Part shown: positions 5,141 through 56,196 of the stretch, piece by piece
Position numbering within the stretch: the first letter of the stretch is position 1
Layout of the letters: every line of letters starts with the position of its first letter
Assembly (NCBI GenBank): GCA_965205685.1
Contig: OZ242174.1
Coordinates: 285,231 to 349,230 of the forward strand
Origin: Gammaproteobacteria bacterium
GTDB lineage: Bacteria > Pseudomonadota > Gammaproteobacteria > UBA4575
Direction of reading: 5' to 3'
DNA length: 64,000 nucleotides
Notes under the pieces: model-generated
The model's database searches: none
Seen by the model: only the letters and a program-made list of their open reading frames with translations
What the model was told of the DNA's origin: nothing
Translations under genes and position numbers: made by a program

Positions 5141-5692
5141 GTGTTCAACAATCCATTCGAGTCATTTCACAACATGGTCGCCGAGGCCAAGGAAGAACGT
5201 GAGCAGCTGGACCGGCTGCTGACCATTTCTACCCCCAATGAGCGTGCGCTGGTGGCTGCCATCGCCGGGGTGCTGGTGGTGCTTTTGGTCTGGCTGGTGT
5301 TTGGCAGCGTGGCCCGCAGCCTGACGTTCGACGGGGTCCTGGCCGGTCCCGGTGAGAGCACGCTGACAGGCGAGCACAACCTGCAGGCGATGGTGTGGAT
5401 CAAGCGTGATGCCGCGGCACAGATCGAGGCCGGTCAGCCTGCGAGGATCGAGTTCAGTGGAGCCGACGGGCACCTCCACACCCTGGCAGGGGAAGTGACA
5501 GGCATTTCCGCACTGCCCCTGACCGAGTTCCTGGCGATGTTCGAGGGCCGTGCACCGCTGTCGGTGCACCGCCTGCACATCCGACTCGATGAACGCCCCG
5601 AGGGCGCTGTGCCTGCACGCAAGGAATGTGAAGTCACCATCGAAGTGGGCAGACAGTCGCCGATCGCACGCCTTCGGATGAGGCCCTCCTGA
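5141..5692 (+). CDS. truncated HlyD-like membrane-fusion protein of an NHLP-type bacteriocin export system
   Basis: A single TM segment (LVAAIAGVLVVLLVWLVF) is followed by a beta-barrel/lipoyl-like segment. It is only 183 aa and lacks the alpha-helical hairpin. Its stop lies 1 nt before the C39 ABC exporter start. Confidence 0.5.
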   Translation: MFNNPFESFHNMVAEAKEEREQLDRLLTISTPNERALVAAIAGVLVVLLVWLVFGSVARSLTFDGVLAGPGESTLTGEHNLQAMVWIKRDAAAQIEAGQPARIEFSGADGHLHTLAGEVTGISALPLTEFLAMFEGRAPLSVHRLHIRLDERPEGAVPARKECEVTIEVGRQSPIARLRMRPS

Positions 5693-7904: not shown

Positions 7905-10846
7905 TGCAGGACACCCAGCCCGCCTACTCCTCGATCGCCGAACTCGCGGCCCGCCTGGGGACTGACGTGCCCTGTGCCGGTAACCTGCCGGTGAAGCTCG
8001 ACGATGCGGACAGCATCTGGCTCATTGACCGGGGCACCGTCAACCTGTTTTTAGTCGAGCTCAAGGACGGTGTGGAGCAGTCGTCTCCACAGCATCTGCT
8101 GCGCCGCGAGGCGGGCTGGTTCCTGCCAGGGGTTCCTGCGCGCGAACCTGATGCGCAGGATGGAACCACGCTGAGCCTGGTAGCCAAGGGTCTGCCCTGC
8201 ACCTTGCTGAAACGCTTGCCGGTCTCCCTGCTGTCCAAGGTGCACCCGGGCGAGCTTGCCGAGCAGACCGATGCCTGGCTGAGCGAGATGACCGACACGC
8301 TGTCGCGCTTCGCCACGCCCGCACCGCGCCCGACGGCCCTGGCCGAGGCCGGTGCGATACAGGTCCCGGCGCATAGCACGCTGTCGGTGCAGCGCAAGGT
8401 GGTGTGGGCGTCCCCGCACCCGGGCAGTGCGCTGCTGTTCATGGACATCGTCGATCCGATGGAGTTGGCCGAGGCCAGCGGCGCAGGGGATGCGGTTCTG
8501 CCGCTGACCCGCACCAGCTGGCTGACCACGCTGGAGGAGACCACGCTGGAGTGCGTGAGCACGCAAACCCTGGCCGAGCAGGGCCGCCTGCAGGGCGCAC
8601 TGTCGTATTTTCATGAGGTCGCCTTCACCCTGGAGCGCCTGAACCGCCGCCTAGCCGTGGTCGACGATGTGAACCTCGAACGTGCCCGCACAACGAGCCG
8701 GCGCACGGCCGAGAAGGCGGCCCGCGCGCGCCTGTTCAACCTCTACGACCAGCCGGTGGGCCGCTATGCCGGCCTTGAGGACACCACCTTGGTCGATGCC
8801 CTGCAGGTCATTGGCCGCCACGAGGGTATCGATTTTAAGATTCCCGTACGTTCCGGGCCTTCGCAGGCTTCGCTCGGCTTGGTCGACGTGCTGGATGCCT
8901 CCGGAGTGCGCGCAAGGCGCGTGCGGCTCAAGGACGAGGACCGGTGGTGGCGCACCGACAGCCACGCGATGCTGGGATTTCGTGCCAAGGACGGCCAGCC
9001 CGTGGCCCTGCTGCCGGGTGTGTTCGGCGGCTACCGCGAAATCGACCCGGTCAGCAAGCGCACGGTTCGCGTCAGCCAGGAACGCGCAGATGCACTGCGT
9101 GAGGACGCGTGGATGTTCTACCGCCCCTTGCCTGCAGACGAGGTGAAACCGGCGGACCTGCTGGGCCTGGCTCTGCAGGGATCGGGACCGGACATTGCCC
9201 GGCTGGTGCTCGCAGGACTTCCCTACGGGCTGATCCAGTTGTTGCCGGCCATCGCGCTTGGCTTTGTCGCCCATGAAATCGCCGCAGGCGGCACTGCCGG
9301 TGCGATCTACGCCGTGGCCTGGGTGTTGGCCGGGTTCGGCCTTCTCGGGGCACTGCTGCACCTCGCGCAAAGTACGGCGATGATGCGTCTTGAGGGGCGC
9401 TCGGCCTCGCGCGCAGAAGCGGCCTTCTGGGACCGCCTCATGCGATTGCCGCCGGCCATCCTGCACCGCCATCCGTCAGGCGACCTGGCGATGTCGGGCA
9501 TGACCTTCCAGAACCTTCGAGACGGCCTGCAGGGAGTGGTCGCCGACAGCTTCCTGTCAGTCATCTTCCTGGCCCCGGTGTTTGCCGTCATCTTCTTCTA
9601 CGATGCCGCCCTCGGCAGTCTCGCCCTGGCCTTCAGCCTGGGGTCGCTGCTCATTACAGGGATGCTCGGTGTCCTGCAGATTGCCCCGTACGGGCGCATG
9701 ATTCGTGCGTCACGGCGTGTCGCCGGGCGCCTGTTCCAGATCGTTGGCGGCTTTGCCAAGCTGCGCGTGGAAAATGCCGAAGGCTCCGCGTTTGCCATGT
9801 GGGCCGAGGACTACCGCGAGCAAAAACGCGCGGAACTCGATTTGAGCGTGCTGGAGGGGCATTCGCGGGCGTTTTCCGCAGCATTGCCGTTTCTCGCGGG
9901 AGCCTTCTTGCTGCTGGCCGCAGTGACCGTCGGCGAGCGCATCATGCCGGTCGGTGATTTTCTGGTCGTCTACCTGGTCTTCATCGCCTTCCAGAGCGCG
10001 ATCGCACGCCTTGGCGAGTCTCTGGGGACCGTTGCGGCCCTGTTGCCGGCGTTCAAGCAGATGCGCCCGCTGCTGGCTGCAGATCCAGAAACCGAGACCG
10101 AAGGCGAGCCGGTGGAATACCTGGGCGGGGACCTCCTGTTCGACCGCATCTCGTTTCGCTACGACCCGGACGGCCCGCTGATTCTCGACGATGTCACGAT
10201 CCACGCACGCGCAGGCGAGTTCATCGCCATCGCCGGCGAGTCCGGCACCGGCAAGAGCACCCTGTTTCGCCTCGCACTCGGCATCGACCGGCCCACGGCG
10301 GGCGCGGTGTACTACGACGGGCGCGATGTGCGCCACCTGAACCTGCGCCAGCTGCGCCGCAAGGTTGGTGCGGTGCCGCAAGCCGTGGGACTTCACCCCC
10401 TGGATATCTGGGACAACCTGGTCAGCCATCATGACGGGATCACCACCGAAGAGGTCTGGGAGGCGGTGCGAACCGCCGAAGTCGAGAAAGAGATCAAGGC
10501 CATGCCCATGGGCATGATGACCATGGTCGGCGCTAGCGGCTCGGTGCTGTCTGGTGGCGAGAGCCAGCGCGTCACCATCGCCCGCTCGGTGATCGGCAAG
10601 CCGCGGATCATGTTGTTCGACGAGGCGACCAACTGGCTGGATAACGAAAACCAGGCCCGGGTCATGGACAACCTGACCGACCTGACCTCTACCCGGCTGG
10701 TCATCGCCCACCGCCTGTCCACGCTCGAGCAGGCGGATCGCATCTACGTGCTGTCCGGCGGCAAGGTGGTGCAGCACGGCAGCTTCGAGGAACTCATGGA
10801 AGAGGACGGGGTGTTCAAGGAACTGGTCAAAAGGCAGATCGCCTGA
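7904..10846 (+). CDS. second ABC exporter of the NHLP bacteriocin system (long N-terminal extension, permease and ATPase)
   Basis: A ~430-aa N-terminal domain precedes the TM domain. Walker A GESGTGKST, signature LSGGESQRVTIAR, Walker B MLFDEATNWLD. ATG overlaps the preceding stop (TAATG). Confidence 0.85.
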   Translation: MQDTQPAYSSIAELAARLGTDVPCAGNLPVKLDDADSIWLIDRGTVNLFLVELKDGVEQSSPQHLLRREAGWFLPGVPAREPDAQDGTTLSLVAKGLPCTLLKRLPVSLLSKVHPGELAEQTDAWLSEMTDTLSRFATPAPRPTALAEAGAIQVPAHSTLSVQRKVVWASPHPGSALLFMDIVDPMELAEASGAGDAVLPLTRTSWLTTLEETTLECVSTQTLAEQGRLQGALSYFHEVAFTLERLNRRLAVVDDVNLERARTTSRRTAEKAARARLFNLYDQPVGRYAGLEDTTLVDALQVIGRHEGIDFKIPVRSGPSQASLGLVDVLDASGVRARRVRLKDEDRWWRTDSHAMLGFRAKDGQPVALLPGVFGGYREIDPVSKRTVRVSQERADALREDAWMFYRPLPADEVKPADLLGLALQGSGPDIARLVLAGLPYGLIQLLPAIALGFVAHEIAAGGTAGAIYAVAWVLAGFGLLGALLHLAQSTAMMRLEGRSASRAEAAFWDRLMRLPPAILHRHPSGDLAMSGMTFQNLRDGLQGVVADSFLSVIFLAPVFAVIFFYDAALGSLALAFSLGSLLITGMLGVLQIAPYGRMIRASRRVAGRLFQIVGGFAKLRVENAEGSAFAMWAEDYREQKRAELDLSVLEGHSRAFSAALPFLAGAFLLLAAVTVGERIMPVGDFLVVYLVFIAFQSAIARLGESLGTVAALLPAFKQMRPLLAADPETETEGEPVEYLGGDLLFDRISFRYDPDGPLILDDVTIHARAGEFIAIAGESGTGKSTLFRLALGIDRPTAGAVYYDGRDVRHLNLRQLRRKVGAVPQAVGLHPLDIWDNLVSHHDGITTEEVWEAVRTAEVEKEIKAMPMGMMTMVGASGSVLSGGESQRVTIARSVIGKPRIMLFDEATNWLDNENQARVMDNLTDLTSTRLVIAHRLSTLEQADRIYVLSGGKVVQHGSFEELMEEDGVFKELVKRQIA

Positions 10847-10900: not shown

Positions 10901-12196
10901 ATGAACCCTCCCATCGATGGTGCAGGCCAGCTCATTTTGCGTGCGGGCCGGGACGAAGGCTTTCGACAACGCCTCATCGATAATCCCAGGCAGGCCATCG
11001 AGGAGGCCCTCGGCGTGAAGATCTCCGCAGACCAGCAGGTGTTCGTGCACGAGTCGAATGAAACCGAAGCCCACCTTGTGCTGCCGCCGGTGAGCACGCG
11101 CACGCCAGCCGAACGCGAGGCCGCGAGAACCGGCGTGGCCTCCCTGGAGTTTCTTCGCAAGACGCTGCACGACCCGGCCCCGCCGATGCGCACTCCCGCA
11201 CCGGCCCGGGCAGTGGACCCCGGGGCGGGCGCCGAGGACCTGGCGTCGGCCGCGCGCAACAGTATCGGTCGTGGCCTCGAATTCCTGCAATCCAGCATCA
11301 CCGATGACGGTGCCTGGCACTGCATTCGCTTCAACATTGCCGATCCCGAGGTGCCCCGGCATTTCGAGCGGCCTGCATTCGTGACGGCATTTTGCGTACT
11401 GGCCCTGCAAGGCTGCGGAGATGTGCGCGCGAAGGCCCTGTACGAGACGAGCCGGGCGTACCTGATGGACACCATGGAATATCCCGGCATGTGGCGCTAC
11501 TACCGCCACCTGCCCCAGGATCTGGACAGCACGACCCTGTGCTCGCTGATCCTTGGTTCGCATCCGTGGATCGCGCTCGGGCGAAACGTGGCAAAGATCC
11601 TGTCGAACCGCGATGCACAGGGCCGTTTCCTGACTTGGGTGCTGGGCGAGGACGAGCCCGATGTCGTGTCAAAATTTCGCATCGAGGCCGACCCGGTGGT
11701 GAATGCGAACGTCATCGCCTACCTCGGCGATCACCCGCAGACCCGTCCCGCGCAGCGCTGGCTCGAAGAGCTGGTACGCGAGGACCGCGTACAGGGCACC
11801 TCGAAATGGTATCCCGATACGATAGCGATCTACTACGCCATCACGCGCACAATGGTGCGCGCTCGCCCCGCGCTCGAGTCGCTTCGCCCGATCCTGGCAG
11901 ACCGTATCCTCGGTCTTCGCGACCCCGAGGGCGGGTTTGGCAACCTACTGCAAAGCGCCCAGGCAGTCTCGGCGCTCGACAACGTGCAGTGCCTGGGCCG
12001 TATCGACATGAAAGTCGAGCTGGCCCGCCTGCTGGGTGCACAGCACGAGGACGGAAGCTGGCCGGAGCTGCTCGCTTTCGGCGACCAGACGCTCAAGTGG
12101 GGGGTGGTCGGTCAGTTCGGACACGCCTCGGAGCCCGTGACCACGGCCTTCTGCATCGAGGCGCTGGGACGCCTCGCACAAGCGCTGAGCAGCTGA
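10901..12196 (+). CDS. NHLP leader-peptide domain fused to a prenyltransferase/squalene-cyclase-repeat (alpha/alpha-toroid) domain
   Basis: Residues ~18-63 (GFRQRLIDNPRQAIEEALGVKISADQQVFVHESNETEAHLVLPP) are paralogous to the leader of the precursor at 13475..13726. After a Pro/Ala-rich linker there are QW-type repeats (RGLEFLQSSITDDGAWH, DAQGRF, DPEGGFGN, HEDGSWP). Confidence 0.7.
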   Translation: MNPPIDGAGQLILRAGRDEGFRQRLIDNPRQAIEEALGVKISADQQVFVHESNETEAHLVLPPVSTRTPAEREAARTGVASLEFLRKTLHDPAPPMRTPAPARAVDPGAGAEDLASAARNSIGRGLEFLQSSITDDGAWHCIRFNIADPEVPRHFERPAFVTAFCVLALQGCGDVRAKALYETSRAYLMDTMEYPGMWRYYRHLPQDLDSTTLCSLILGSHPWIALGRNVAKILSNRDAQGRFLTWVLGEDEPDVVSKFRIEADPVVNANVIAYLGDHPQTRPAQRWLEELVREDRVQGTSKWYPDTIAIYYAITRTMVRARPALESLRPILADRILGLRDPEGGFGNLLQSAQAVSALDNVQCLGRIDMKVELARLLGAQHEDGSWPELLAFGDQTLKWGVVGQFGHASEPVTTAFCIEALGRLAQALSS

Positions 12197-12207: not shown

Positions 12208-13347
12208 ATGGCATCTGCCCCAGAGGACATCAGCATCGACGAGGCCATCCTGCTGACCCAGGAGCGCCTAGACGATGAAGGCGACAGCATGGCCGACTTG
12301 CTCGAGCACTTTCGCGAGCGAATCTCGCCGGTGCTGATCGGCGACTCCCAATGGACCCGAGTACTCGATTGCGTCGCCAAGCTTCCGATCACCATGGCGG
12401 CCCTTCCCTTCGGTTTCGAACTGCCCCTGCATGAGACAGCACCGCTGGCGGATTTTGGCGCCTCGCTGGCTGCCGGCACGCGATCGGCCGAACCATTCCT
12501 TGCCCGTGCGAAGGCGGACCCCGGCGATGCACTGGCGTGCGCGATCGCCCGCCTGTTCCGCCAGATGGAGGCCGAGCCCTCGCCGCTTCGCGAGGTGGTC
12601 GGGCGAAAGCTCATGCTCGAATATGACATCGGTTCGGCCGGGCCGGGCAAGCCGCCCTTCCCTGGCATGTTTTTGCGCCCCGGCGAGCGCCCGATACTCG
12701 GGGCCTGCGAGCAGCACGACGAGGTTGCCCTGGTGGCGGATGCGCTGGTGTCCTGTCTTGGCTGGTCGATGGATGAGGCCCATCGCGGGCACATTGAACG
12801 CAGCTACCGGATGCAGCCCGAGGATACGCGCATGGACTCGTTCGGTGTGTTTCCCTCACGCTCGCAAGCCATACGCCTGGCGGTCATGGGCTTTCGCTCG
12901 AGCGCACAGCTTGGCGAGTATCTTGAGAACACCGGCTGGCCCGGGGACATTGCAGCCGTCGATGCGGTGCTCAAGCGATTCGCTGAGCGCGCGGACATCG
13001 TTCGCACCGGCATCAATATCGACGTCCAGGAGCAGGGCCTGGGTCCGACGCTGGGCCTGACGCTGATCGTCAAGCAGCGCTATACGAAAGATTCCCGCTA
13101 CTGGCTCGATGGCCTGACCGACTGGGAGCCGTTCCTTGAGGCGCTGGGCCAGGAGGCGCTGGTGGACCGGGACAAGCTGGCCGAGCTGGCCACGTGGGTG
13201 AGCAAGCCGACGACGCTGTTTGCGAAGTCCGGGCGCTTTGTGCTGCTGCGTGGCATCCACCACATCAAGCTGGTGATCTCCGAGAATGAACTGCGAAAAG
13301 CCAAGGCCTACGTGTTCATGGTGCTGTCCGGTGCGGTCAGTTTCTGA
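12208..13347 (+). CDS. hypothetical protein, co-transcribed with the leader-toroid fusion
   Basis: Clean 379-aa ORF, 11 nt after the upstream stop. No recognisable family. Confidence 0.45.
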   Translation: MASAPEDISIDEAILLTQERLDDEGDSMADLLEHFRERISPVLIGDSQWTRVLDCVAKLPITMAALPFGFELPLHETAPLADFGASLAAGTRSAEPFLARAKADPGDALACAIARLFRQMEAEPSPLREVVGRKLMLEYDIGSAGPGKPPFPGMFLRPGERPILGACEQHDEVALVADALVSCLGWSMDEAHRGHIERSYRMQPEDTRMDSFGVFPSRSQAIRLAVMGFRSSAQLGEYLENTGWPGDIAAVDAVLKRFAERADIVRTGINIDVQEQGLGPTLGLTLIVKQRYTKDSRYWLDGLTDWEPFLEALGQEALVDRDKLAELATWVSKPTTLFAKSGRFVLLRGIHHIKLVISENELRKAKAYVFMVLSGAVSF

Positions 13348-13372: not shown

Positions 13373-13467
13373 CCCTCCGTCCCGGTGCGGGACGGAGGGT
13401 CAGTCTAGATAAAAGCAGATCGACGCAGGCGCGGATGGCCTGCGTCTGGACCGGCTAGTAGCCGGTC
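13373..13467. terminator. cluster of three stem-loops between convergent genes (bidirectional terminator region)
   Basis: CCCTCCGTCCC-ggtgc-GGGACGGAGGG, GACGCAGG-n9-CCTGCGTC and GACCGGCT-agt-AGCCGGTC. The last lies ~8 nt past the precursor stop. Confidence 0.45.
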
Positions 13468-13474: not shown

Positions 13475-13726
13475 TTACCAGCAGCAGCAAAGCCCGGCGG
13501 AAATCGCTTCGAGCTGCTCTTCGCTGATGTTCGGGTCCGGTGGCAGGGCAAGATGCACCGTCTGCATGTCGCTCTCATGGACCACAACGTTCATCGACTC
13601 GGGCATGGTAATGCCCAACTCTGCGCTGATGGTAGATTTCGGGTCATCGAGAAGCTGTTGCCTGAATTCTGTGTCCAGGGCAGACTTCTCAACAATCTGC
13701 TTAAGCATGTCATCGCCGCTTCTCAT
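13475..13726 (-). CDS. NHLP-family RiPP precursor peptide, predicted core LCCCW
   Basis: Leader motif FRQQLLDDPKSTISAELGITMPESMNVVVHESDMQTVHLALPPDP. A double-glycine-type site QLEAISAG (L-7, I-4, AG-2/-1) is followed by the C-terminal LCCCW. AAGGAGG lies 6 nt before the ATG. Confidence 0.75.
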   Translation of the reverse strand: MRSGDDMLKQIVEKSALDTEFRQQLLDDPKSTISAELGITMPESMNVVVHESDMQTVHLALPPDPNISEEQLEAISAGLCCCW

Positions 13727-13891: not shown

Positions 13892-14329
13892 CTACTTGAA
13901 CGTCTCGTCCCCCTCGAAGATGCCCTGCAGGCGGATCTTGCTCTTCTTGTTGGCCATTTCAGTGCGGATCCGCTGCTCCATGAACCATGCCGTTTTCTGG
14001 TTCAGGATCAGACTGCGGGCCAGCCGGTAGCTGGACAGGTTTTTCCCGGCATGGACGATCAGGCCGACCGCCAGAAACCATTTTTGCAGCGGGATGCGGG
14101 TCTTCTCGAACAGCGTGCCCGAAAGGACGTTGAAGCTGGACCTGCATCCATGGCAGTTCCAGCGCCCGACGCGACCCGAGTCTATCTTTCTGGCCACGCG
14201 GACACTTCCACAATGCGGGCAACGGGGCTGATCCCCCCAGCGGAGCCCTTCAAGGTGCCCAATGCAGGCCGCCTGGTCCGGGAAGCGGTGGAAGATCCGC
14301 AGGATGTCGATGGCTCGAGCTTTGGCCAT
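13892..14329 (-). mobile_element. IS1595-family transposase N-terminal fragment (remnant)
   Basis: Zinc-ribbon CPHCGS…CHGC and IS1595-type N-terminus. It is only 145 aa, the DDE domain is absent, and no inverted repeats were identified. Confidence 0.55.
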
Positions 14330-14439: not shown

Positions 14440-16773
14440 TCAGGGTGAGGCCGCGGAGGACTTTCCGGGCATTCGGTCCACCAGCATCAACAGCGCCGGC
14501 AAGAGGGTCAGGTCGGCCACCAGCGCAAAGCCGATGATCAACGCGGTCAGCACGCCCACCTGCGCGGTGGGCACGAACGGCGAGAACACGAAGATCAGGA
14601 AGCCCGCGACCAGCACGAGCGTGGTGGTGAGCAGCGCGCGCCCAGCCGTATCGAAGGCATAATGAATGGCCTGCTCGGGCGCCTGGCCGTATTCGCGGCG
14701 CGCCCTCTGGTACTTGCTTAGAAAATGCACCGTGTCGTCGACGACGATGCCGACGGTCATGGCGACCACGACCGAGAGCGAAAGCCCCACCTGCCCGACC
14801 GTCAACCCCCAGACCCCGAAGCCCAGCGCCGCCGGCACCAGGTTGGGCACGATGCTGATCAGGCCCAGGCGAATCGACTGCAGGGCGATCAGCAGGATGG
14901 CGGAAATTGCCACCAGCACCAGCACGGTGCCAATCAGCATGGCGCGGATGTTGCGCTGTCCGATATAGGCGAACAGGGCCGCCGGCCCGGTGCTGTTGAT
15001 CTCGGTAATGTCCGATGCGTTCTCGGCCAGCCAGGCGTTGGCGTGCGAATTCAGCTCCAGCACCTCCCGCGAGGACAGCGTCTCGGCCGAGACCGAGACG
15101 CGCGTCGCCGACCTCGAGCGGTCGATCTGGTTGTTCATGTCCAGGCCCTGCGGCAGCGACAGCTCGTACAGCAGCAGGTACTGCGCCGCGAGCTCCTGGC
15201 TTTCCGGGAGCCGGTAGGCCGCGGGATCATCGCCATGCATGCTCATGTTGAGTTGCTGGAAGGTGTCTGTGATGACCGCGACGTGGCGCACCGGGGGCTG
15301 TTCACGGTACCACTCGGCAAACCGGGCGATCTCGGTCAGGAAATCCGGGTGGGTGGCCCCGCCTTCCTCGGGAGCGTGCAGCGAGTACTCCAGCAGGGTG
15401 TTGCCGCTCAGGTGCTCGTCCATGAAATCGGTGTCCTGGCGAAACTCCGTGCCCTCGTCGAAAAAGTGCACCAGCACGTCGCTGAGCTCGTTGCGGGGAA
15501 TGGCCGTGAGCATGACCGGAACGATCACCAGCCAGGTGACGAACAGCGCAGTCCTGTAGCGCAGCACGGTGTTGGCGAGGCGCTCGATGGTGACCGCACC
15601 CAGCTTTCGCTCTGGGCGCGCACGAAACGGCAACAGCGAGATCAGGGCCGGCAGGAAGGTCACCGAGAGCGTGAAGGAGGCGACGATGCCGATGGCGATG
15701 AAGTTGCCGAGATGACGGTAGGGCGGCACCTCGGAGAAATTCATGCTCAAAAACCCGAGCGCGGTGGTCAGGCTCGCCAGAAACACCGGGTGCAGGTTGT
15801 ATCTGAGCGACTCGACGATGGCCTCATTCTTGGAATCGCCCGCGCGAAGCCGCTGCTGCAGGGCCACCAGCAGGTGCACGCAGTTGGCCACGACGATCAT
15901 CAGCACGATGGTCGGAGCCGGCGAGATGGGCGGCGAGAACGGCAGGCCAAGCCACACGCCACCGCCAAGGGATACGAGGATGGAAAAGACGATCACCAGG
16001 CCGGTCGCGGCCACACCCGTCCAGCTGCGGACGAGCAGGCCGAGAATCACGGCCATGAGCACGAGGCTGGCCGGCAGGAAAATCTTCTGGCTGTCGACCG
16101 AGGCCTCGACAAAGGTCTGGCTGACCATGACCGTGCCGACGATGCGAAGGTCAATGCCCGGGAAGCGCTGCTCGCCCTCGCCAGCCACCTTGCGGGCGTA
16201 CCCGGTCACTTCTGCCACGGCCTCGAGCAGCCCCTCCTCCGGCGGCTCCAGGGTGACGTTGACGACACTGACATCGCCGCCGCGCCCGAGGATGCTGCCG
16301 GCGATCCTGGGGTCGGACAGCGCAATGGCCCGGATCTGCTTGCGAACCTCGGCATCGTCCAGTGTTTGCGGGTCGATGAGGTCGCGCACGTACAGGTCAT
16401 CGCCGTCGGCGGTGGTGTACTGGAAGTTGGCGAGCGAGTCCACGCGTCGCGAATAGGGCGTTCGCCAGGCGGCCTCGGTCAGCCAGACGGTGGCCGAAAG
16501 CGCGTTTTGCGAGGTGGCGTCACCGTCGTCGGGGACGATCAGGAACGCGAGGTTCTCGTTCTTGCCGTAGGTTTTCTCAAGCGCCTCCAGATCCAGCAGC
16601 TGCGGGTTGTCTCCATCGAAGAAGATGCGGTAGTTGGCGGAGAACTCAAATCGCGCGATGCCGCTTGCAGCGAGGGCCACCAGCACCAGCGAGGCGACAA
16701 TGATTGGCCAGCGCCAGGCGATCACCCACTCGCCAAAGCGCATCGCAAACGGTGGATGTCCGGGTGTATTCAC
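14440..16773 (-). CDS. RND-superfamily exporter (COG1033 / MMPL/HpnN-like)
   Basis: 777 aa with twelve predicted TM segments in two blocks separated by large periplasmic loops. The N-terminus MRFGEWVIAWRWPIIVASLVLVALAASG is typical of this family. Confidence 0.85.
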   Translation of the reverse strand: MNTPGHPPFAMRFGEWVIAWRWPIIVASLVLVALAASGIARFEFSANYRIFFDGDNPQLLDLEALEKTYGKNENLAFLIVPDDGDATSQNALSATVWLTEAAWRTPYSRRVDSLANFQYTTADGDDLYVRDLIDPQTLDDAEVRKQIRAIALSDPRIAGSILGRGGDVSVVNVTLEPPEEGLLEAVAEVTGYARKVAGEGEQRFPGIDLRIVGTVMVSQTFVEASVDSQKIFLPASLVLMAVILGLLVRSWTGVAATGLVIVFSILVSLGGGVWLGLPFSPPISPAPTIVLMIVVANCVHLLVALQQRLRAGDSKNEAIVESLRYNLHPVFLASLTTALGFLSMNFSEVPPYRHLGNFIAIGIVASFTLSVTFLPALISLLPFRARPERKLGAVTIERLANTVLRYRTALFVTWLVIVPVMLTAIPRNELSDVLVHFFDEGTEFRQDTDFMDEHLSGNTLLEYSLHAPEEGGATHPDFLTEIARFAEWYREQPPVRHVAVITDTFQQLNMSMHGDDPAAYRLPESQELAAQYLLLYELSLPQGLDMNNQIDRSRSATRVSVSAETLSSREVLELNSHANAWLAENASDITEINSTGPAALFAYIGQRNIRAMLIGTVLVLVAISAILLIALQSIRLGLISIVPNLVPAALGFGVWGLTVGQVGLSLSVVVAMTVGIVVDDTVHFLSKYQRARREYGQAPEQAIHYAFDTAGRALLTTTLVLVAGFLIFVFSPFVPTAQVGVLTALIIGFALVADLTLLPALLMLVDRMPGKSSAASP

Positions 16774-16784
16774 GCTGCGGTGCC

Positions 16785-19184
16785 TCAGGCGATGACCGCC
16801 ACGGGGTTGAGGTCAGCCTCGGCCAGCGGTGCCGTGCGCCTGCCCACCTGCACCGGCACCTCGTACAGGCGCCCCGGGGCAAAGCGCTCCCAGAAGTGGC
16901 GCATGCCCGGCACGATGACCCGTGCCACCGGCATGCCGATATCGGGCCGGGTCTGCTCGAGCACCAGCATCTCCAGGCCCTTGTCGGCCACCAGGGTACA
17001 GCAGCGCTCGACGTCCTCCTTGATGTCGGCAGTCTCGGGCAGCGGGTAGTCCGTCCGTCCCCGCGCGGGTACCCCGGGGTCCGGAGCCAGGTAGGGATGA
17101 TCCTCGAGCCTCGCGTTCTGCCACCAGGCGAGGCACATCGGGTCATCGACCCCGTATCCGGTGTGCCCGGCCTGCGGGCGCGGAACCCAGGTCAGGCACT
17201 GGTTCATCTCGCACACTGCCCGCAAGGCGGCGATGCGCGCATCGGTGTGTGCTCCGGCCCCGTACAGGATGTCTTCGGACTGCGCATCGGTCCTGCGCGA
17301 CAGGGCCACGAAGGCCGGGATGGGAAAATCGGCGCTGACGTCGAGCAGCCACATGTCGCGCTCGAGCGTTCGGTAGTAGTCCGGTGCACCGGCCAGGTAG
17401 TCGTCGTTGAAACTCTCAAGCTCGACGCGCGGACAGCGCAGGCGGTTGTACCACCAGATAGAGAAGGCATCGCGCTCCACCAGCTCGAGAAAGCCCTGCA
17501 GGATGGCCTCCTCCAGCGTGTTGCCGGCCGCGCACCCGTTCGAGTCCGCCCAAAGATCCCGCGGGCCGCGCTGCTCGGGGGTCATGCCGTAGAGTATCGA
17601 GGTCGGCAGGTAGCAGTGGCGCGCGCGGGTGAGCGAGTACACCGGCGACCAGTCGACCTCGGCTTCCACATTAAAGCGCGGGGGAATGATGTTGTAGGGG
17701 TGCGCGCGGGCATTAATATCATCGGCGTGCTCGAGCTGGTGGTCGCTGAACAGCTGCACCTCGTTCGGATGGATGGCCTGCCCGTCTTCGCCCTGGCCTT
17801 CGAACTCCGAATAGCGCTTGCGGGTGCGGATCTCATCGCCGTGGAAGGCGCCCGAATAGCGCTCGATGGCCTCGCAAAGCGCGCTCGCCTGCGACTGCTC
17901 GGGCGTGCTTCCCTTGCCCGCGCTCTTGCTTCGAAGGCTGCGCCGCAGCGAACTCAGGCTCTTGATGCGAAGCGCCAGGTTGGAGCCTGCCCAGTGCACG
18001 TGCAGCCAGGAGTCGCTGACCTCCGTGGTGCGTTCCAGCCAGCTGACCACGCCGCTGACCGGGCTGATCAGGTGGCGGTAGCGGGCCAGGGTCTGCTCCG
18101 GATGGACCGCGCGAAGCCCGCCGCTGTTTTGCACATCCTTCGGGCTGGGCTTGAGCTGCACTGCCCGTGGCGGGCGATCCGCCCGGTAGTGCGTTTCCTC
18201 GCCACACACGGGACACTGCGGGCGCCTGCACACGGGATGGCTCTGCGTTTTCAGAGGACCAAGTTCGAGCGTGATGGCATTCGAGTGGATCGGGGCACGC
18301 TCGGTGAAGACCAGCCACTTGGCGATCTCGGCCGCGATCAGTGCGTGCACGGCGCCCAGCAGCCCGGGCTCGGCGGCGAAGGCACGAAAAGCGCCTGCCT
18401 CGCCCTCGCGGTTGCGCACGAAGGTGTGGACCTCTTGGTGGTTTTGCAGGCGGTAGGCGAGACAGTTCCAGCACGGCCCGCCCGTGCCCGGTCGAAACAC
18501 CGGACCGATGAGCGGGCTGGTCCCCTTGGGACGGGCCAGCATCCAGGGGCGGCCCGAGGCCAGGTGCCCGCGGTTGAGGCCGGCGTGCTGCGCATCGAGA
18601 TAGTCCTCGCAGACCACCACGTCAAGTGCCTCACCCTGTGGGCTCACGGCCACCCCGAGCGACTCCAGCGCACCCGTGAGGGCACATTCCTCGTCCCCGG
18701 CCACGCTCACACCCGTGCTCTCCAGGCGCTCCTCGACGAACCGCGGGGAGGCCCCGAGCGAGGACCACCAGGCTGCGCGCTCGCGCGCCATGCGGTATTC
18801 ACCTGAAACGATGTAGCCTCGCGAGGTGAGGGATTTGAGCCAGGCGTTGGGGTCTTGGCCAACCCACTGTGCCCCCAGGGTAGCGGTGATCTCGTCGTGG
18901 CTGTTCGTGCCATCCAGCAGCGCCAGCAGCGGTCCGTAGAATGGACCGTGCAGCAGCGTGTTGAAGGATTCGGAGACGAGCAGCACGCGCTCCTCATCGA
19001 GGATCCGGTACTCGAGATGCGGGGCCAGCACGGGCATTTCGATAACGCCGGTATCGGCCGCACTCACCTTGTGCAACAGGCCTTGCGGGGCAGTCGCATT
19101 CGGCCCTGTGCCCGCCGCGTGCGGGCTGTGTGGTCCTGGCATACCCGAATCCGCAACCATGCTCCGTAGCATAAAGGGGATCAC
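16785..19184 (-). CDS. TOMM-type cyclodehydratase: E1-like (ThiF-like) docking domain fused to YcaO
   Basis: The N-terminal domain has a CxxC…CxxC zinc tetrad (CWNC…CPVC). The C-terminal YcaO region includes SGGLRAVHPEQTLARY and ALCEAIERYSG. This architecture co-occurs with NHLP/Nif11 precursors. Confidence 0.85.
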   Translation of the reverse strand: MIPFMLRSMVADSGMPGPHSPHAAGTGPNATAPQGLLHKVSAADTGVIEMPVLAPHLEYRILDEERVLLVSESFNTLLHGPFYGPLLALLDGTNSHDEITATLGAQWVGQDPNAWLKSLTSRGYIVSGEYRMARERAAWWSSLGASPRFVEERLESTGVSVAGDEECALTGALESLGVAVSPQGEALDVVVCEDYLDAQHAGLNRGHLASGRPWMLARPKGTSPLIGPVFRPGTGGPCWNCLAYRLQNHQEVHTFVRNREGEAGAFRAFAAEPGLLGAVHALIAAEIAKWLVFTERAPIHSNAITLELGPLKTQSHPVCRRPQCPVCGEETHYRADRPPRAVQLKPSPKDVQNSGGLRAVHPEQTLARYRHLISPVSGVVSWLERTTEVSDSWLHVHWAGSNLALRIKSLSSLRRSLRSKSAGKGSTPEQSQASALCEAIERYSGAFHGDEIRTRKRYSEFEGQGEDGQAIHPNEVQLFSDHQLEHADDINARAHPYNIIPPRFNVEAEVDWSPVYSLTRARHCYLPTSILYGMTPEQRGPRDLWADSNGCAAGNTLEEAILQGFLELVERDAFSIWWYNRLRCPRVELESFNDDYLAGAPDYYRTLERDMWLLDVSADFPIPAFVALSRRTDAQSEDILYGAGAHTDARIAALRAVCEMNQCLTWVPRPQAGHTGYGVDDPMCLAWWQNARLEDHPYLAPDPGVPARGRTDYPLPETADIKEDVERCCTLVADKGLEMLVLEQTRPDIGMPVARVIVPGMRHFWERFAPGRLYEVPVQVGRRTAPLAEADLNPVAVIA

Positions 19185-19294: not shown

Positions 19295-21763
19295 ATGGCG
19301 ATAGGTAATGTAGAGCCGGGTGGTGTGGGTGCCGGTGCCGGCCCTCGAGGCGGCATCATCGAGCCGACGATCTGGGCGGCCCTTCCGTATTTCATCTCGC
19401 TGATGGTCTTCCCCTTGATGCTGCTGGCCGCCACCTTCGGGGGCTGGTGGCTGCTTGGTCCGGCCTTCTATTTCATGCTGGCGGGCTGGTTCGACAAGCT
19501 GTTCGGCACGGAAACGCGCAACATGGACCCGGAGGCCACCCTGGAGAGCCAGCTGGTCCTGTACAAGCTGGCAATCTGGGCCTGGGCACTTCTGTGGCTG
19601 GTGACGTTCGTCTATGCGCTCTGGCAGATCCTGGTTGTGGGCCAGCTGGCGCTGTGGGAGAGCCTGCTGCTGGCCGTCCTGCTGGCCCTGGTGGGACAGG
19701 CGGTGTTCATCGCCGGACATGAGCTGATCCATCAACGTGCCCTGTGGGAGCGTCGCCTGGGCGAGCTTTTGCTGGCGTCCGTGTCGTACCCGATCTACGC
19801 CACCGAACACATCTACGTGCACCATGCCCTGGTGTGCACGCCGGCCGATCACGGCACGGCGATCAAGGGTCAGAGCTTCTGGCAGTACCTGCCGAAGGAT
19901 CTTGCCGCAAGCCTGCGCGAGTCCTGGCGTTTTGAGTGCAGCCGGCTGTCGAGGCGGCACCTGCCGGTGTGGCATTACAGCAACCCGTTCTGGCGCTATG
20001 GCCTGACGATGGCCGGATGGTATCTGCTGGTCTACTGGATGGGCGGGATCTGGGCGGTGCTGGTGTTTGCGCTGTTTTGCTCGGGCATCATCCTGTCCAT
20101 GAAAATCATCAACTACGTGCAGCACTACGGGTTGCAGCGCATCCGCTTGCCCAATGGCCGCTTCGAGCGTGTCGCGCCCCGCCATTCCTGGAGTGCGGCC
20201 AGCAAGTTCACCAACTGGATCTACTACAACATGCAGCGCCATGCCGACCATCACATCGAGGCCACCCGCTACTATCCGCTGCTGCAGCATCACGGCGAGG
20301 AGGAATCCCCGCAGCTGCCCAGGAACTATTCCGAGATGGCCGGGCTCGCCGTGGCCCCCAAACGCTGGTTCGAGGTCATGGATCCGATGGTGGACCGCTG
20401 GCGCGCGCGCTTCTATCCGCATATCAGTGACTGGAGCGCCTACGACAGTGCGGCCTTCGTAGCCCGCCCGGAATCGATCGAGCGCATCCAGGAAATCCTC
20501 GGAGCCTCGCCGCGCCTGACCGAGTGGATCAACGCCGCCCCGGAACTGCTGGACTGCCTCGAGGAGCGCGAGTTCACCGACCTGGACTTGCCCGACGGCT
20601 TCGGCCCGGACACGGGCTTTGAGACGATCGCGCGCAAGGGGCTTGCGCGGTTGTACTGGACGCATGAATTCGGCGTGGTAGAGATGACCGAGCAGCTGTC
20701 CGAGCTGCCGGCACAGGGCGAGCGCGAGAAAGTCGAGACCGTGCGCAACTGGCTCAACGACAAGGTCTTCCAGGTGAGCGTGCACGTGATGCGCGGCAAC
20801 CTCTCGCCGGTGGAGGCAGGACCCGTGTTCACGAACCTTGCACAGGCCTCGATCTCCGTGCTGCTGGCCGCCGTCGAGGACGAGTACCGCTCCACTTCGA
20901 GGCGTGCACGACGTTCCCGCGGCGCACTGGCCGCAGTCCTGCTCGGCGATGCGGCGAGCGGCGAAGCCGTTCCCGGTTGCGAACTCGAGGTTGCGTTCGT
21001 GTACCAGGGCACTCCGCCCGAGTACTACCGGGCCCTGGGGACACGCCTTTACAATGCACTGCGCGCGTTCTCCCATGAGAACCTGCTGTTCATCGAGGTC
21101 CCGCGCACCCGGGAAGCCCCGCGGGTACGCTCCCTGGAGGAATTTTCCGAGCACTACAGGACTGAGGGCACGGCCAGCGAGCTGCACGCGCTGATGCAGG
21201 CGCGTTGCGTGTTTGCACCGGTCGACTCCAGCCTGGACGTTCAGTTCGACAAGGTACGCTGCGAGGTGCTGACGCACGGGGCTGCTCGTCTTGAACTGCT
21301 GGACAAGCTCTCGGAGGCGTGTGGCGATGCCCCCCAGCCGGGGCTTGCCTCCATCGAGGACATGCACGGCGGCCAGGATGAACTCGAACGTGCGGCGCGC
21401 TGGGTGCAGTTGACCCATGCCGAGGATGCCCTGACCCTGCTGGTACCCGATACCGCCTCCGTGTTCGAAACGGCCGGCGGCTGCGGGCTGATGGATGAAC
21501 AAGCGGCCACGCGCCTGGCCGAGGCCACCCGCCTGTGGAGAAATATCCAAGGCGCCCTGCAGATGGTGGTGGGCTATCCCCTGGACGGGGAGGCGCTGGA
21601 CCCCAAGGTCAAGGCGGCCATTGCGCGTGCCTGCGCACAGGATGATTTTGATGAACTGGCCGAGCTCATTCGCGAGACCGCATCGCGCGCCGGCCTCGAT
21701 CTTGGTGCCCTGGAGGGTTTGCGGGAGAGTGATTCGGACCCCTTGCAGGATGCGCCCGGATAG
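19295..21763 (+). CDS. AlkB-like integral-membrane di-iron hydroxylase/desaturase fused to a GlnE/GlnD-like nucleotidyltransferase-type C-terminal domain
   Basis: His boxes HELIH, EHIYVHH, NYVQHYGL and RHADHH match the AlkB family. The C-terminal ~470 aa has a GlnE-like helical region and a degenerate NTase motif (GDAASGEAVPGCELEVAFVY). Confidence 0.65.
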   Translation: MAIGNVEPGGVGAGAGPRGGIIEPTIWAALPYFISLMVFPLMLLAATFGGWWLLGPAFYFMLAGWFDKLFGTETRNMDPEATLESQLVLYKLAIWAWALLWLVTFVYALWQILVVGQLALWESLLLAVLLALVGQAVFIAGHELIHQRALWERRLGELLLASVSYPIYATEHIYVHHALVCTPADHGTAIKGQSFWQYLPKDLAASLRESWRFECSRLSRRHLPVWHYSNPFWRYGLTMAGWYLLVYWMGGIWAVLVFALFCSGIILSMKIINYVQHYGLQRIRLPNGRFERVAPRHSWSAASKFTNWIYYNMQRHADHHIEATRYYPLLQHHGEEESPQLPRNYSEMAGLAVAPKRWFEVMDPMVDRWRARFYPHISDWSAYDSAAFVARPESIERIQEILGASPRLTEWINAAPELLDCLEEREFTDLDLPDGFGPDTGFETIARKGLARLYWTHEFGVVEMTEQLSELPAQGEREKVETVRNWLNDKVFQVSVHVMRGNLSPVEAGPVFTNLAQASISVLLAAVEDEYRSTSRRARRSRGALAAVLLGDAASGEAVPGCELEVAFVYQGTPPEYYRALGTRLYNALRAFSHENLLFIEVPRTREAPRVRSLEEFSEHYRTEGTASELHALMQARCVFAPVDSSLDVQFDKVRCEVLTHGAARLELLDKLSEACGDAPQPGLASIEDMHGGQDELERAARWVQLTHAEDALTLLVPDTASVFETAGGCGLMDEQAATRLAEATRLWRNIQGALQMVVGYPLDGEALDPKVKAAIARACAQDDFDELAELIRETASRAGLDLGALEGLRESDSDPLQDAPG

Positions 21764-56185: not shown

Positions 56186-56196
56186 CCGTGATCCCT

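What the first reader, a model, noticed from the sequence alone, without database searches (positions are those of the whole stretch)
14440..19184. YcaO cyclodehydratase is translationally adjacent (11 nt) to a COG1033 RND exporter and no SagB-type dehydrogenase is present
The E1-like/YcaO gene stops 11 nt before the RND exporter start on the same strand, suggesting co-transcription of a RiPP enzyme with an RND transporter usually associated with lipids or hopanoids. No FMN-dependent SagB-like dehydrogenase is evident anywhere in the window, so the product may retain azolines (metal-chelating) or the YcaO may do other chemistry (thioamide/amidine). A TonB-dependent receptor and a Cys-rich core hint at a metallophore-like role.
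Basis: inference. Interest (0 to 1): 0.7.

Follow-up and report, generated by a model that had tools for sequence, protein, structure and literature searches.

The report
Sponge-symbiont srp peptide cluster with lipid-type exporter
The YcaO enzyme and the RND exporter belong to an already described gene cluster of sponge-symbiont bacteria (the 'srp' cluster) that makes a tiny brominated, thiazoline-containing peptide; the exporter is a conserved but unstudied part of it, and neighbouring genes hint that the peptide also receives a lipid-like terpene group.

Summary
A fused E1-like/YcaO gene (16785-19184, minus strand) ends 11 nt before a 12-helix RND gene (14440-16773). No nitroreductase/SagB-type gene was found among the window ORFs scanned.

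The locus is not new. It is an 'srp' (sponge-derived RiPP proteusin) cluster:
- The precursor (13475-13726) carries an NHLP leader and the published core LCCCW.
- The YcaO is a full-length LynD/TruD homologue (SrpC).
- A SrpI-like tryptophan halogenase with Lys84 lies at 1235-2509.
- Published work shows SrpC makes three thiazolines and SrpI brominates the C-terminal Trp.

In 82 related loci from many phyla, mostly sponge symbionts:
- The RND gene recurs in 50, usually just downstream of the precursor gene.
- The tight YcaO-RND junction occurs only in the window's own clade.
- A TonB receptor recurs in none.
- No SagB-like gene was seen.

The RND gene pairs with a LolA-like protein and a DUF1302 outer-membrane protein, like the AmeABCD monoterpene efflux system.

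New here: three conserved 'hypothetical' genes are an ABBA prenyltransferase-fold protein, an NHLP-leader-fused class II terpene cyclase, and an AlkB-like di-iron enzyme. This suggests a lipidated product, which would explain a lipid-type exporter. That step is inference only.

The parts
16785..19184 (-). srpC-like fused E1-like (leader-binding) / YcaO cyclodehydratase; true start between 19184 and 19142
   Evidence: TIGR03882 and TIGR03604 score above their cutoffs, and Pfam YcaO gives 8e-94. LynD 4v1t matches at E 5.6e-163 over residues 53-795. At least 423 genomic relatives share about 59-90% identity.
16774..16784 (-). 11-nt spacer between the YcaO stop (TGA) and the RND start (GTG); GAGG overlaps the stop
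   Evidence: Read directly. The same spacing, with ATG as start, is seen in L001, L003 and L022.
14440..16773 (-). RND transporter of HAE3/MMPL type, 777 aa, 12 predicted TM helices with two large periplasmic loops
   Evidence: Pfam MMPL 3.6e-34 and sterol-sensing domain 7e-11. HAE3 TIGR00921 gives 2.5e-43 but scores below its cutoff. Hydropathy supports the topology. A homologue occurs in 50 of 82 related loci, median 67% identity.
13892..14329 (-). IS1595-family transposase remnant (zinc ribbon plus the first 70 residues of the DDE domain) between the RND and precursor genes
   Evidence: NF033547 5e-14 and PF12760 4.7e-11. Found at the same place in L001/L004, L003 and L022 only.
13475..13726 (-). 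srpE precursor, 83 aa: NHLP leader, LXXXXL motif (ISEEQL), AG cleavage site, core LCCCW
   Evidence: Translation. TIGR03793 scores 68.1 bits against a cutoff of 50.9. An identical peptide occurs in L001. The published SrpE core is LCCCW.
13422..13446 (-). terminator-like hairpin (9-bp stem, 7 GC pairs, T-rich tail) just after srpE; likely end of the srpC-RND-srpE transcript
12208..13347 (+). conserved 'hypothetical' protein (379 aa) with an ABBA aromatic-prenyltransferase fold
10901..12196 (+). 431-aa protein: NHLP leader-like domain (about aa 5-66) fused to a single-domain class II terpene cyclase (about aa 110-431) with an invariant D207-L-D209-S-T motif
7904..10846 (+). NHLP-system ABC exporter subunit 2 (permease/ATPase)
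   Evidence: TIGR03797 gives 4.4e-197; its 656.7 bits fall below the 709.4 cutoff.
5694..7904 (+). NHLP-system ABC exporter subunit 1 with a C39 peptidase domain (leader cleavage at the AG site and export)
   Evidence: TIGR03796 scores 857.7 bits against a cutoff of 853.3. Pfam Peptidase_C39 gives 3e-32.
5141..5692 (+). short HlyD-like membrane protein of the NHLP export system
   Evidence: Weak TIGR03794 hit, 3.4e-5. A homologue occurs in 38 of 82 loci, upstream of the ABC genes.
4058..5038 (-). LolA-like periplasmic carrier (PF17131; weak DUF1329 hit)
   Evidence: Pfam LolA_like 2.2e-58. It follows the RND gene directly in L025, L028 and L038.
2829..4058 (-). DUF1302-like putative outer-membrane protein (signal peptide; C-terminal ...IFSF)
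   Evidence: Translation. All 12 family members hit DUF1302, best E 9e-9; the window copy alone gives 0.013.
1235..2509 (-). srpI-like flavin-dependent tryptophan halogenase (Lys84 and Tyr110 present)
   Evidence: Pfam Trp_halogenase 2.7e-43. Sequence read directly. PDB Trp halogenases match at about 1e-27. Every halogenase-bearing locus that has a detected precursor encodes an LCCCW core.
19295..21763 (+). 822-aa fusion of a membrane di-iron AlkB/fatty-acid-desaturase-like domain and a GlnE-like nucleotidyltransferase-fold domain whose catalytic region is poorly conserved
   Evidence: Pfam FA_desaturase 1.2e-24 and GlnE 2.1e-9. The motifs HELIH, EHIYVHH, NYVQHYG and QRHADHH have all their histidines (and most other positions) conserved in at least 95% of 61 sequences, whereas the 540-600 region is variable. 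Present in 72-74 of 82 loci, just upstream of the YcaO on the same strand in 48, with a 4-nt overlap in L002.

Best explanation
The locus is one copy of the srp (sponge-derived RiPP proteusin) gene cluster.

Proposed pathway:
1. SrpE is made with an NHLP leader and the five-residue core LCCCW.
2. The fused E1-like/YcaO enzyme (SrpC) binds the leader and uses ATP to cyclodehydrate the three Cys to thiazolines.
3. The SrpI-like halogenase brominates the C-terminal Trp.
4. The C39-peptidase ABC transporter cuts after the Ala-Gly site and moves the core across the inner membrane.
5. The RND protein is the cluster's own hydrophobe exporter. With the LolA-like periplasmic carrier and the DUF1302-like outer-membrane protein, it takes the very hydrophobic product from the inner membrane or periplasm out of the cell. 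AmeABCD is thought to do the same for monoterpenes.

The 11-nt YcaO-RND junction means that in this lineage srpC, the RND gene and srpE are read as one transcript. That gene order is a lineage-specific rearrangement of a conserved gene set.

The cluster has no SagB-type oxidase, so the heterocycles probably stay as thiazolines unless a non-canonical oxidase acts.

Shown: gene identities, gene order, conservation, and (from the literature) the thiazoline and bromination steps.
Inferred: co-transcription, the two-step export route, and the substrate of the RND pump.
For: Identity as srp:
- Precursor with an NHLP leader and core LCCCW, identical to the published SrpE core.
- YcaO homologous over its full length to LynD/TruD.
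- Halogenase with Lys84.
- At least 423 relatives at about 59-90% identity. The 80 retrieved span Proteobacteria, Nitrospirales, Binatia, Acidobacteriota, Gemmatimonadota, Opitutales and Acidimicrobiia, and several records are named as sponge symbionts.

RND as a cluster member:
- Present within 10 kb in 50 of 82 loci, at 42-99% identity (median 67%), across phyla.
- Directly downstream of srpE, with a 75-255 nt gap, in 22 loci.
- First gene of an RND-HlyD-ABC-...-YcaO string in L034, L039, L063 and L073.
- Followed directly by the LolA-like and DUF1302-like genes in L025, L028 and L038.

Analogue: AmeABCD combines an HAE3 RND, a DUF1302 outer-membrane protein and a DUF1329/LolA-like protein, and its deletion lowers monoterpene tolerance (PMC6394551).

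Junction: conserved. The only terminator-like site lies after srpE.

No SagB.
Against: - No transcript data were examined, so co-transcription is inferred from spacing only.
- An IS1595 remnant lies between the RND gene and srpE and could carry its own signals.
- The RND gene is absent within 10 kb in 32 of 82 loci. These include all Acidobacteriota, Gemmatimonadota, Acidimicrobiia and Opitutales loci, so it is not indispensable to the pathway.
- Its HAE3 score is below the curated cutoff (148 vs 352 bits).
- No AmeC-like fourth component was found.
- No experiment links any HAE3 pump to a peptide.
- The founding srp paper (JACS 2021) was not available to me, so I cannot say what it states about these genes.
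Confidence: 0.7

Rival explanations
1. The thiazolines are oxidised after all, by a non-canonical enzyme. The candidate is the AlkB/desaturase-like di-iron domain of the 822-aa fusion protein, or the FAD_binding_4 oxidase present in some relatives. Either would replace SagB and desaturate thiazoline to thiazole, so the product would be a tris-thiazole.
For: - The di-iron gene is the most constant companion of the YcaO. It occurs in 72-74 of 82 loci and lies immediately upstream on the same strand in 48, with a 4-nt overlap in L002.
- Its His-box motifs are near-invariant, with every histidine conserved in at least 95% of 61 sequences.
- Thiazoline to thiazole is formally a desaturation.
- An FAD_binding_4 oxidase recurs in 15 loci.
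- The literature writes 'azole' for the final product.
Against: - As far as I know, no di-iron desaturase has been shown to oxidise azolines.
- The AlkB-type motifs fit hydroxylation of a methyl group at least as well.
- In E. coli, SrpC alone gave thiazolines, and the authors had to borrow MprD from another cluster to obtain thiazoles.
- The window has no FAD_binding_4 gene.
Confidence: 0.2
2. The RND pump does not carry the peptide. It is a self-protection or general hydrophobe/lipid transporter, for example for membrane remodelling or for a lipid co-substrate, that travels with the island.
For: - HAE3/MMPL relatives move hopanoids, mycolates, siderophores and terpenes rather than ribosomal peptides.
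- The cluster already has a dedicated peptidase-ABC exporter.
- The RND gene is missing near many srp loci.
Against: - It lies next to the precursor gene in 22 loci and stays linked across phyla at 67% median identity.
- In several loci it sits in the same gene string as the HlyD/ABC export genes.
- Self-protection by efflux of the same compound would in practice be the same activity as export.
Confidence: 0.15
3. The product is a metallophore. The tris-thiazoline peptide binds a metal and is taken up again through the TonB-dependent receptor at 29944-32598.
For: - Consecutive thiazolines can chelate metals (general chemistry).
- A TonB receptor is present in the window.
- MmpL4/5 relatives export siderophores.
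Against: - The receptor recurs in 0 of 82 related loci, as do almost all genes beyond 21.8 kb.
- No uptake ABC system, reductase or metal regulator is conserved with the cluster.
- Some core variants have only two Cys (LSCC).
Confidence: 0.05
4. The YcaO performs thioamidation or amidine formation rather than azoline formation.
For: No dehydrogenase partner is present. A secondary NCBIfam hit is to the McrA-glycine thioamidation YcaO, at 138 bits against a cutoff of 365.
Against: - It has the full-length LynD/TruD/MusD architecture, including the fused leader-binding domain.
- No TfuA partner was detected.
- Published SrpC activity is thiazoline formation on this same core.
Confidence: 0.03

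Closest known systems
srp (sponge-derived RiPP proteusin) gene clusters: SrpE / SrpC / SrpI (Nguyen et al., J Am Chem Soc 2021; PMC10286304; PMC10858898)
   Same: - NHLP-leader precursor with core LCCCW.
- Fused YcaO cyclodehydratase.
- Flavin-dependent Trp halogenase with Lys84.
- Peptidase-ABC export genes.
- No azoline oxidase.
- Spread across many bacterial phyla in sponges.
   Different: - The leader motif is NISEEQL, against the published NLTEEQL.
- The gene order in this lineage is YcaO-RND-(IS remnant)-precursor.
- The papers I could read call the accessory genes 'unknown function'. Here they get fold-level assignments.
Cyanobactin-type heterocyclases LynD / TruD / PatD
   Same: Same fused domain layout (winged helix, E1-like leader-binding domain, YcaO). 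E 1e-158 to 1e-163 over the full length. Recognition of an LXXXXL leader motif.
   Different: The substrate carries a long, folded NHLP leader instead of a short cyanobactin leader. There are no PatA/PatG proteases or macrocyclase, and the core is only five residues.
AmeABCD of Castellaniella defragrans (HAE3 RND monoterpene efflux; PMC6394551)
   Same: An HAE3-type RND of about 780 aa, encoded with a DUF1302 outer-membrane protein and a LolA-like (DUF1329-type) periplasmic protein. Hydrophobic cargo.
   Different: - No AmeC-like component was seen.
- In the window the three genes are split: the RND gene next to the YcaO, the other two 9 kb away.
- The cargo here would be a modified peptide.
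- Sequence relatedness to AmeD itself was not measured.
HpnN hopanoid transporter
   Same: Same RND branch (HAE3), with sterol-sensing-type helices. It is the second-best NCBIfam hit.
   Different: The score is far below the family cutoffs (125.6 vs 751.85 bits; 34.6 vs 1100). There are no hopanoid synthesis genes in the conserved set. HpnN works without outer-membrane partners.
MstE (monodomain class II terpene cyclase of merosterolic acid) and ABBA indole prenyltransferases (MpnD, CymD, IptA)
   Different: Sequence identity is only 9-24%. The cyclase is fused to an NHLP leader-like domain, which I have not seen described. No activity is known.

Membership tests
srp proteusin gene cluster | Precursor with a nitrile-hydratase-like leader and an LCCCW core after a Gly-type cleavage site | tested here: met
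   Window 13475-13726 ends ...EAISAG/LCCCW. TIGR03793 scores 68.1 bits against a 50.9 cutoff. The core is as published.
srp proteusin gene cluster | YcaO cyclodehydratase (SrpC) encoded with the precursor | tested here: met
   The two genes lie 3 kb apart on the same strand.
srp proteusin gene cluster | Flavin-dependent peptidyl Trp brominase (SrpI) with catalytic Lys84 | tested here: met
   Window 1235-2509 hits Trp_halogenase at 2.7e-43. Lys84 and Tyr110 are present, while position 102 is Phe rather than Tyr. Bromide specificity cannot be tested here.
srp proteusin gene cluster | Occurrence in sponge microbiomes across unrelated bacterial phyla | tested here: met
   Relatives carry record titles such as Poriferihabitaceae, Porisulfidus, Spongia_Bin9 and lac_sponge, and come from at least 8 phyla or classes. 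The window's own source is not known to me.
Azoline-forming fused E1-like/YcaO heterocyclase (LynD/PatD type) | N-terminal leader-binding (RRE/E1-like) domain fused to a YcaO domain | tested here: met
   TIGR03882 covers residues 212-380 and TIGR03604 covers 423-795, both above cutoff. LynD aligns to residues 53-795.
Azoline-forming fused E1-like/YcaO heterocyclase (LynD/PatD type) | ATP-dependent cyclodehydration of Cys/Ser/Thr | not testable with these tools
   Taken from published SrpC co-expression data.
Thiazole/oxazole (TOMM/LAP) system with SagB-type dehydrogenase | FMN-dependent nitroreductase-fold azoline dehydrogenase in the cluster | tested here: not met
   No nitroreductase hit in any window ORF scanned. 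None among the recurrent gene families of 82 loci. The candidate unknown gene is a prenyltransferase fold. The rest of the genome could not be searched.
HAE3 family of RND transporters (COG1033) | 12 TM helices with two large periplasmic loops, and family-level sequence match | tested here: inconclusive
   The topology fits. HAE3 TIGR00921 is the best NCBIfam hit at 2.5e-43, but 148 bits is below the 351.9 cutoff. Pfam MMPL scores above its cutoff.
Ame-type HAE3 export system | RND encoded with a DUF1302 outer-membrane protein and a DUF1329/LolA-like periplasmic protein | tested here: met
   LolA_like 2.2e-58, with a weak DUF1329 hit. DUF1302 hits in 12 of 12 family members. The three genes are contiguous in L025 and L028. 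An AmeC-like partner was not found.
HpnN hopanoid transporter | Score above the HpnN model cutoffs, and hopanoid genes nearby | tested here: not met
   TIGR03480 scores 125.6 against 751.85, and NF052374 scores 34.6 against 1100. The HpnA-like epimerase at 25046-26176 is weak and recurs in 1 of 82 loci.
Metallophore (siderophore-like) system | Cognate TonB-dependent receptor or uptake genes conserved with the biosynthetic genes | tested here: not met
   A homologue of the TonB receptor occurs in 0 of 82 loci.
ABBA aromatic prenyltransferases | Alpha-beta-beta-alpha barrel fold | tested here: met
Class II terpene cyclases | Alpha/alpha-barrel fold with the DxDD-type acid motif | tested here: met

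The most novel reading that the evidence does not exclude
In the LCCCW-type srp clusters, including this one, the final product would not be just a brominated tris-thiazoline pentapeptide. It would be a peptide-terpenoid hybrid:
- The ABBA prenyltransferase-fold protein attaches a polyprenyl chain.
- The NHLP-leader-fused MstE-like class II cyclase cyclises that chain. Its leader-like domain would serve to dock on the same machinery or to be secreted by the same ABC exporter.
- The AlkB-like di-iron enzyme oxidises it.
- The resulting lipid-like molecule is the reason the cluster keeps an HAE3 RND / LolA-like / DUF1302 export route.
Probability: 0.35. Interest if true: 0.8.

Novelty: new member of a known kind. 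Interest (0 to 1): 0.4.

Why it matters
The srp clusters are among the most widespread and most highly transcribed biosynthetic genes in sponge microbiomes. Even so, their mature product and its role are unknown.

As stated, the finding rediscovers that cluster, so it adds little by itself.

The follow-up gives concrete, testable functions to genes that the literature I could read still calls 'unknown': a prenyltransferase fold, a leader-fused terpene cyclase, an AlkB-like oxygenase, and a three-part hydrophobe exporter. If correct, this would change what chemists should look for in sponge extracts. The target would be a lipidated, possibly cyclised-terpene peptide rather than a bare pentapeptide. 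It would also be the first link between an HAE3-type RND pump and a ribosomal peptide.

Tried and rejected
1. Hidden dehydrogenase. I tested whether the unannotated 379-aa gene that normally follows the YcaO is a divergent SagB. A profile search against PDB sequences found nothing. The predicted structure is an ABBA prenyltransferase barrel, so this was rejected.

2. The 861-aa minus-strand ORF 19181-21766, which overlaps the YcaO start by 4 nt, looked like an upstream operon partner. It has no domain hits and the wrong codon-position GC. The plus-strand ORF 19295-21763 is the real gene.

3. The TonB receptor, S8 protease (21878-24385), HpnA-like epimerase and autotransporter were considered as cluster members. 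They recur in 0, 2, 1 and 1 of 82 loci, so they were rejected.

4. A profile search of the 409-aa protein against PDB sequences gave nothing useful. Pfam scans of 12 family members did identify DUF1302.

5. I tried three times to read the founding srp paper and the methanotroph follow-up (PMC8780398, PubMed id 34213321, PMC9746716). They are not held. A 2025 sponge peptide review and a 2026 preprint did not discuss srp genes.

6. The GlnE-like domain was considered as an active adenylyltransferase. The region where the nucleotidyltransferase catalytic motif should lie is poorly conserved among 61 homologues. I therefore treat it as probably non-catalytic, without proof.
Full report
**1. Checking the observation**

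The two minus-strand ORFs named in the finding exist. Both show the codon-position GC pattern of real genes in this 64% GC sequence.

The upstream ORF (16785-19184) is a fused leader-binding/YcaO protein:
- TIGR03882 scores 141.7 bits against a cutoff of 36.9.
- TIGR03604 scores 252 bits against a cutoff of 219.
- Pfam YcaO gives E 8e-94.
- It aligns over its whole length with the cyanobactin heterocyclases LynD (E 5.6e-163), TruD and MusD.

The downstream ORF (14440-16773) is an RND transporter:
- Pfam MMPL gives 3.6e-34.
- The best NCBIfam hit is the HAE3 family at 2.5e-43, though below that model's cutoff.
- Its hydropathy profile fits 12 helices and two large loops.

The junction reads TGA, then 11 nt, then GTG, with GAGG overlapping the stop codon. 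The three closest relatives have the same stop, 11-nt spacer and start position, with ATG as start. No terminator-like hairpin lies between the genes. A strong one follows the precursor gene at 13446-13422.

I scanned the ORFs I judged plausibly coding with Pfam and/or NCBIfam and found no nitroreductase/SagB family. Some short leftover ORFs were not scanned.

Two corrections are needed. The exact YcaO start is uncertain. The long minus-strand ORF that abuts it (19181-21766) is a shadow of a plus-strand gene.

**2. What the locus is**

An 83-residue ORF lies on the same strand as the YcaO and RND genes (13475-13726). It has an NHLP leader (TIGR03793, 68 bits) and ends ...NISEEQLEAISAG-LCCCW.

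Searching with the YcaO returned thousands of proteins. The 120 best-scoring hits listed were 63-95% identical, and all but one covered the full query length. At least 423 genomic loci were found. The 80 retrieved come from Gamma- and Alphaproteobacteria, Nitrospirales, Binatia, Thermodesulfobacteriota, Acidobacteriota, Gemmatimonadota, Opitutales and Acidimicrobiia. Many record titles name sponge symbionts, such as Poriferihabitaceae, Porisulfidus, Spongia_Bin9 and lac_sponge.

This matches the published 'srp' (sponge-derived RiPP proteusin) clusters:
- The SrpE core is LCCCW.
- The YcaO SrpC converts the three Cys to thiazolines.
- The flavin enzyme SrpI (catalytic Lys84) brominates the C-terminal Trp in a leader-dependent way (PMC10858898 and PMC10286304; preprint 10.1101/2023.06.09.544420).

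The window also encodes a Trp-halogenase homologue with Lys84 and Tyr110 at 1235-2509. It encodes the two NHLP-type ABC export proteins as well, one with a C39 peptidase domain.

The founding paper (J Am Chem Soc 2021, 143:10221) is not in the library. I therefore cannot say how it annotated the remaining genes.

**3. Is the RND gene part of the cluster?**

I compared 18 window proteins with 82 related loci, each with up to 10 kb on either side.

| Gene | Loci with a homologue (of 82) |
|---|---|
| Di-iron/GlnE-like fusion | 72-74 |
| 379-aa unknown | 71 |
| Precursor | 68 |
| ABC genes | 55-60 |
| RND | 49-50 |
| HlyD-like | 38 |
| 431-aa NHLP fusion | 28 |
| Halogenase | 17 |
| LolA-like | 16 |
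| 409-aa protein | 13 |
| S8 protease | 2 |
| Epimerase | 1 |
| Autotransporter | 1 |
| TonB receptor | 0 |

The RND proteins are 42-99% identical to the window's (median 67%), about the same as the YcaO proteins. So the pump has travelled with the cluster across phyla.

Its position varies:
- It is directly downstream of the precursor gene (gap 75-255 nt) in 22 loci.
- It is the first gene of an RND-HlyD-ABC-...-YcaO string in four loci.
- It is directly downstream of the YcaO with the tight spacer only in L001/L004 (one genome), L003 and L022, the window's nearest relatives.
- It follows the YcaO with looser spacing in L005, L006, L014 and L064.

The 50 of 82 figure is a lower bound, because several loci end just where the gene would be expected. 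However, the gene is absent near all Acidobacteriota, Gemmatimonadota, Acidimicrobiia and Opitutales copies.

**4. The pump's partners**

In L025 and L028 the RND gene is followed directly by homologues of two window genes, 4058-5038 and 2829-4058. In L038 it is followed by the first of these.
- The first is a LolA-like protein (PF17131, 2.2e-58, with a weak DUF1329 hit).
- The second has a signal peptide and an aromatic C-terminus. All 12 family members tested hit DUF1302, best E 9e-9.

This trio matches AmeABCD of Castellaniella defragrans. There an HAE3 RND (AmeD), a DUF1302 outer-membrane protein (AmeA) and a DUF1329/LolA-like protein (AmeB) are co-expressed, and their deletion lowers tolerance to monoterpenes (PMC6394551).

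The most economical reading is a two-step export:
1. The peptidase-ABC system cleaves after Ala-Gly and moves the core across the inner membrane.
2. The RND/LolA-like/DUF1302 set carries the hydrophobic product outward.

This route is inferred, not shown.

**5. The missing dehydrogenase**

In most relatives the gene right after the YcaO is the 379-aa 'hypothetical' protein (48 of 71 loci). That made it the obvious place for a cryptic SagB. It has no Pfam, NCBIfam or PDB-sequence match.

Its predicted structure (pLDDT 74, pTM 0.77) is an ABBA aromatic-prenyltransferase barrel:
- All 50 top Foldseek hits are prenyltransferases.

Clustering all other ORFs of the 82 loci gave three recurrent families: SAM methyltransferases (34 loci), an FAD_binding_4 oxidase (15) and an MpaB/Lcp-like oxygenase (6). 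None was nitroreductase-like. The absence of a SagB-type enzyme is therefore a family trait. It agrees with the published thiazoline (not thiazole) outcome for SrpC.

A non-canonical oxidase cannot be excluded. The 822-aa plus-strand gene next to the YcaO (19295-21763) has four AlkB-type di-iron motifs: HELIH, EHIYVHH, NYVQHYG and QRHADHH. Comparing them with the AlkB signature rests on my own knowledge of that family. Every histidine in these motifs, and most other positions, is conserved in at least 95% of 61 sequences. In most relatives this gene lies immediately upstream of the YcaO, with a 4-nt overlap in L002. Its GlnE-like C-terminal domain is poorly conserved where the catalytic motif should be.

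**6. An unexpected neighbour**

The 431-aa gene at 10901-12196 starts with an NHLP leader-like domain. Its family profile matches nitrile hydratase alpha at 2.5e-9 and the solved NHLP leader 8tb1 at 1.7e-6.

It continues as a single-domain class II terpene cyclase:
- Model pLDDT 78, pTM 0.82.
- The invariant D207-L-D209-S-T aligns with the DDLDTT acid motif of drimenol synthase.

More than 1000 homologues exist. All but one of the names shown by sources call them 'hypothetical' (one is labelled nitrile hydratase subunit alpha).

Taken together, the prenyltransferase-fold protein, the AlkB-like enzyme and the terpene-type exporter suggest that the LCCCW product is prenylated and that the prenyl chain is cyclised. 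Such a product would be lipid-like, which would make a lipid-type RND pump sensible.

Against this:
- No isoprenoid-supply gene is conserved in the cluster.
- The prenyltransferase-like gene also occurs with cores that lack Trp (LCCCGI, RCCC, LSCCL), so the acceptor atom is unknown.
- No activity data exist.

**7. Verdict**

Co-transcription is plausible, the pump is of the lipid type, there is no SagB, and the azolines are probably retained. It is partly wrong on two points: the metallophore/TonB link is not supported, and alternative YcaO chemistry is unlikely.

The locus is another member of a described cluster family, so the finding itself is of modest interest. The most novel reading still open is a peptide-terpenoid hybrid product exported by an Ame-like HAE3 system. 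I give it about one chance in three.

Noticed in passing
window 10901-12196 (+): A 431-aa protein in which an NHLP leader-like domain is fused to a complete MstE-like class II terpene cyclase with an intact DxD[ST]T motif. More than 1000 homologues exist, nearly all labelled 'hypothetical'. A conserved Thr-Gly sits where the precursor has its Ala-Gly cleavage site, so the enzyme might dock on, or be secreted by, the same peptidase-ABC exporter.
   Followed up: partly
window 12208-13347 (+): A 379-aa protein with no family annotation folds as an ABBA aromatic (indole-type) prenyltransferase. It is one of the most conserved members of the cluster (71 of 82 loci).
   Followed up: partly
window 19295-21763 (+): An 822-aa fusion of an AlkB-like membrane di-iron domain, with four near-invariant His motifs, to a GlnE-like domain whose catalytic region is not conserved. 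It is the most constant neighbour of the YcaO. The overlapping 861-aa minus-strand ORF (19181-21766) is a shadow ORF.
   Followed up: partly
window 13892-14329 (-): A truncated IS1595-family transposase (zinc ribbon plus the start of the DDE domain) sits between the RND and precursor genes. It is retained at about 88% identity in the closest relatives (L001, L003, L022). It may mark the rearrangement that brought the RND gene next to the YcaO.
   Followed up: partly
loci L001-L082 (precursor genes): The core peptides are only 3-6 residues long and fall into a few types: LCCCW (26), LCCCG[IFVL] (13), LSCC[LGVM] (9), RCCC (5), MCCCGI (4) and RCCCC[AF] (4). Some loci carry two precursor types. 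Every halogenase-bearing locus with a detected precursor has an LCCCW core.
   Followed up: partly
window 48000-57500: A low-GC stretch (46-54% against about 64%) is packed with toxin-antitoxin and defence-type genes: HipA-like kinases, AbiEii/AbiEi, Fic, HEPN/RES, and an AAA_21 ATPase with RloB. It is probably a mobile island.
   Followed up: no
window 57572-64000: Genes typical of integrative conjugative elements or plasmids: an S24 LexA-like repressor, DUF2857, AcaB, DUF3577, and a FitA-like antitoxin with a PIN-domain toxin.
   Followed up: no
window 21878-24385 (+) and 26226-29684 (-): An 835-aa S8 subtilase and a 1152-aa autotransporter with a Calx-beta domain flank the cluster. They recur only in the nearest relatives (2 and 1 of 82 loci), so they are probably not part of the pathway.
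   Followed up: partly
loci L002, L008 and others (between the 379-aa gene and the RND gene): Many relatives, but not the window, carry one or two SAM methyltransferases (34 loci) and an FAD_binding_4 oxidase (15 loci) inside the cluster. This points to further tailoring variants.
   Followed up: partly
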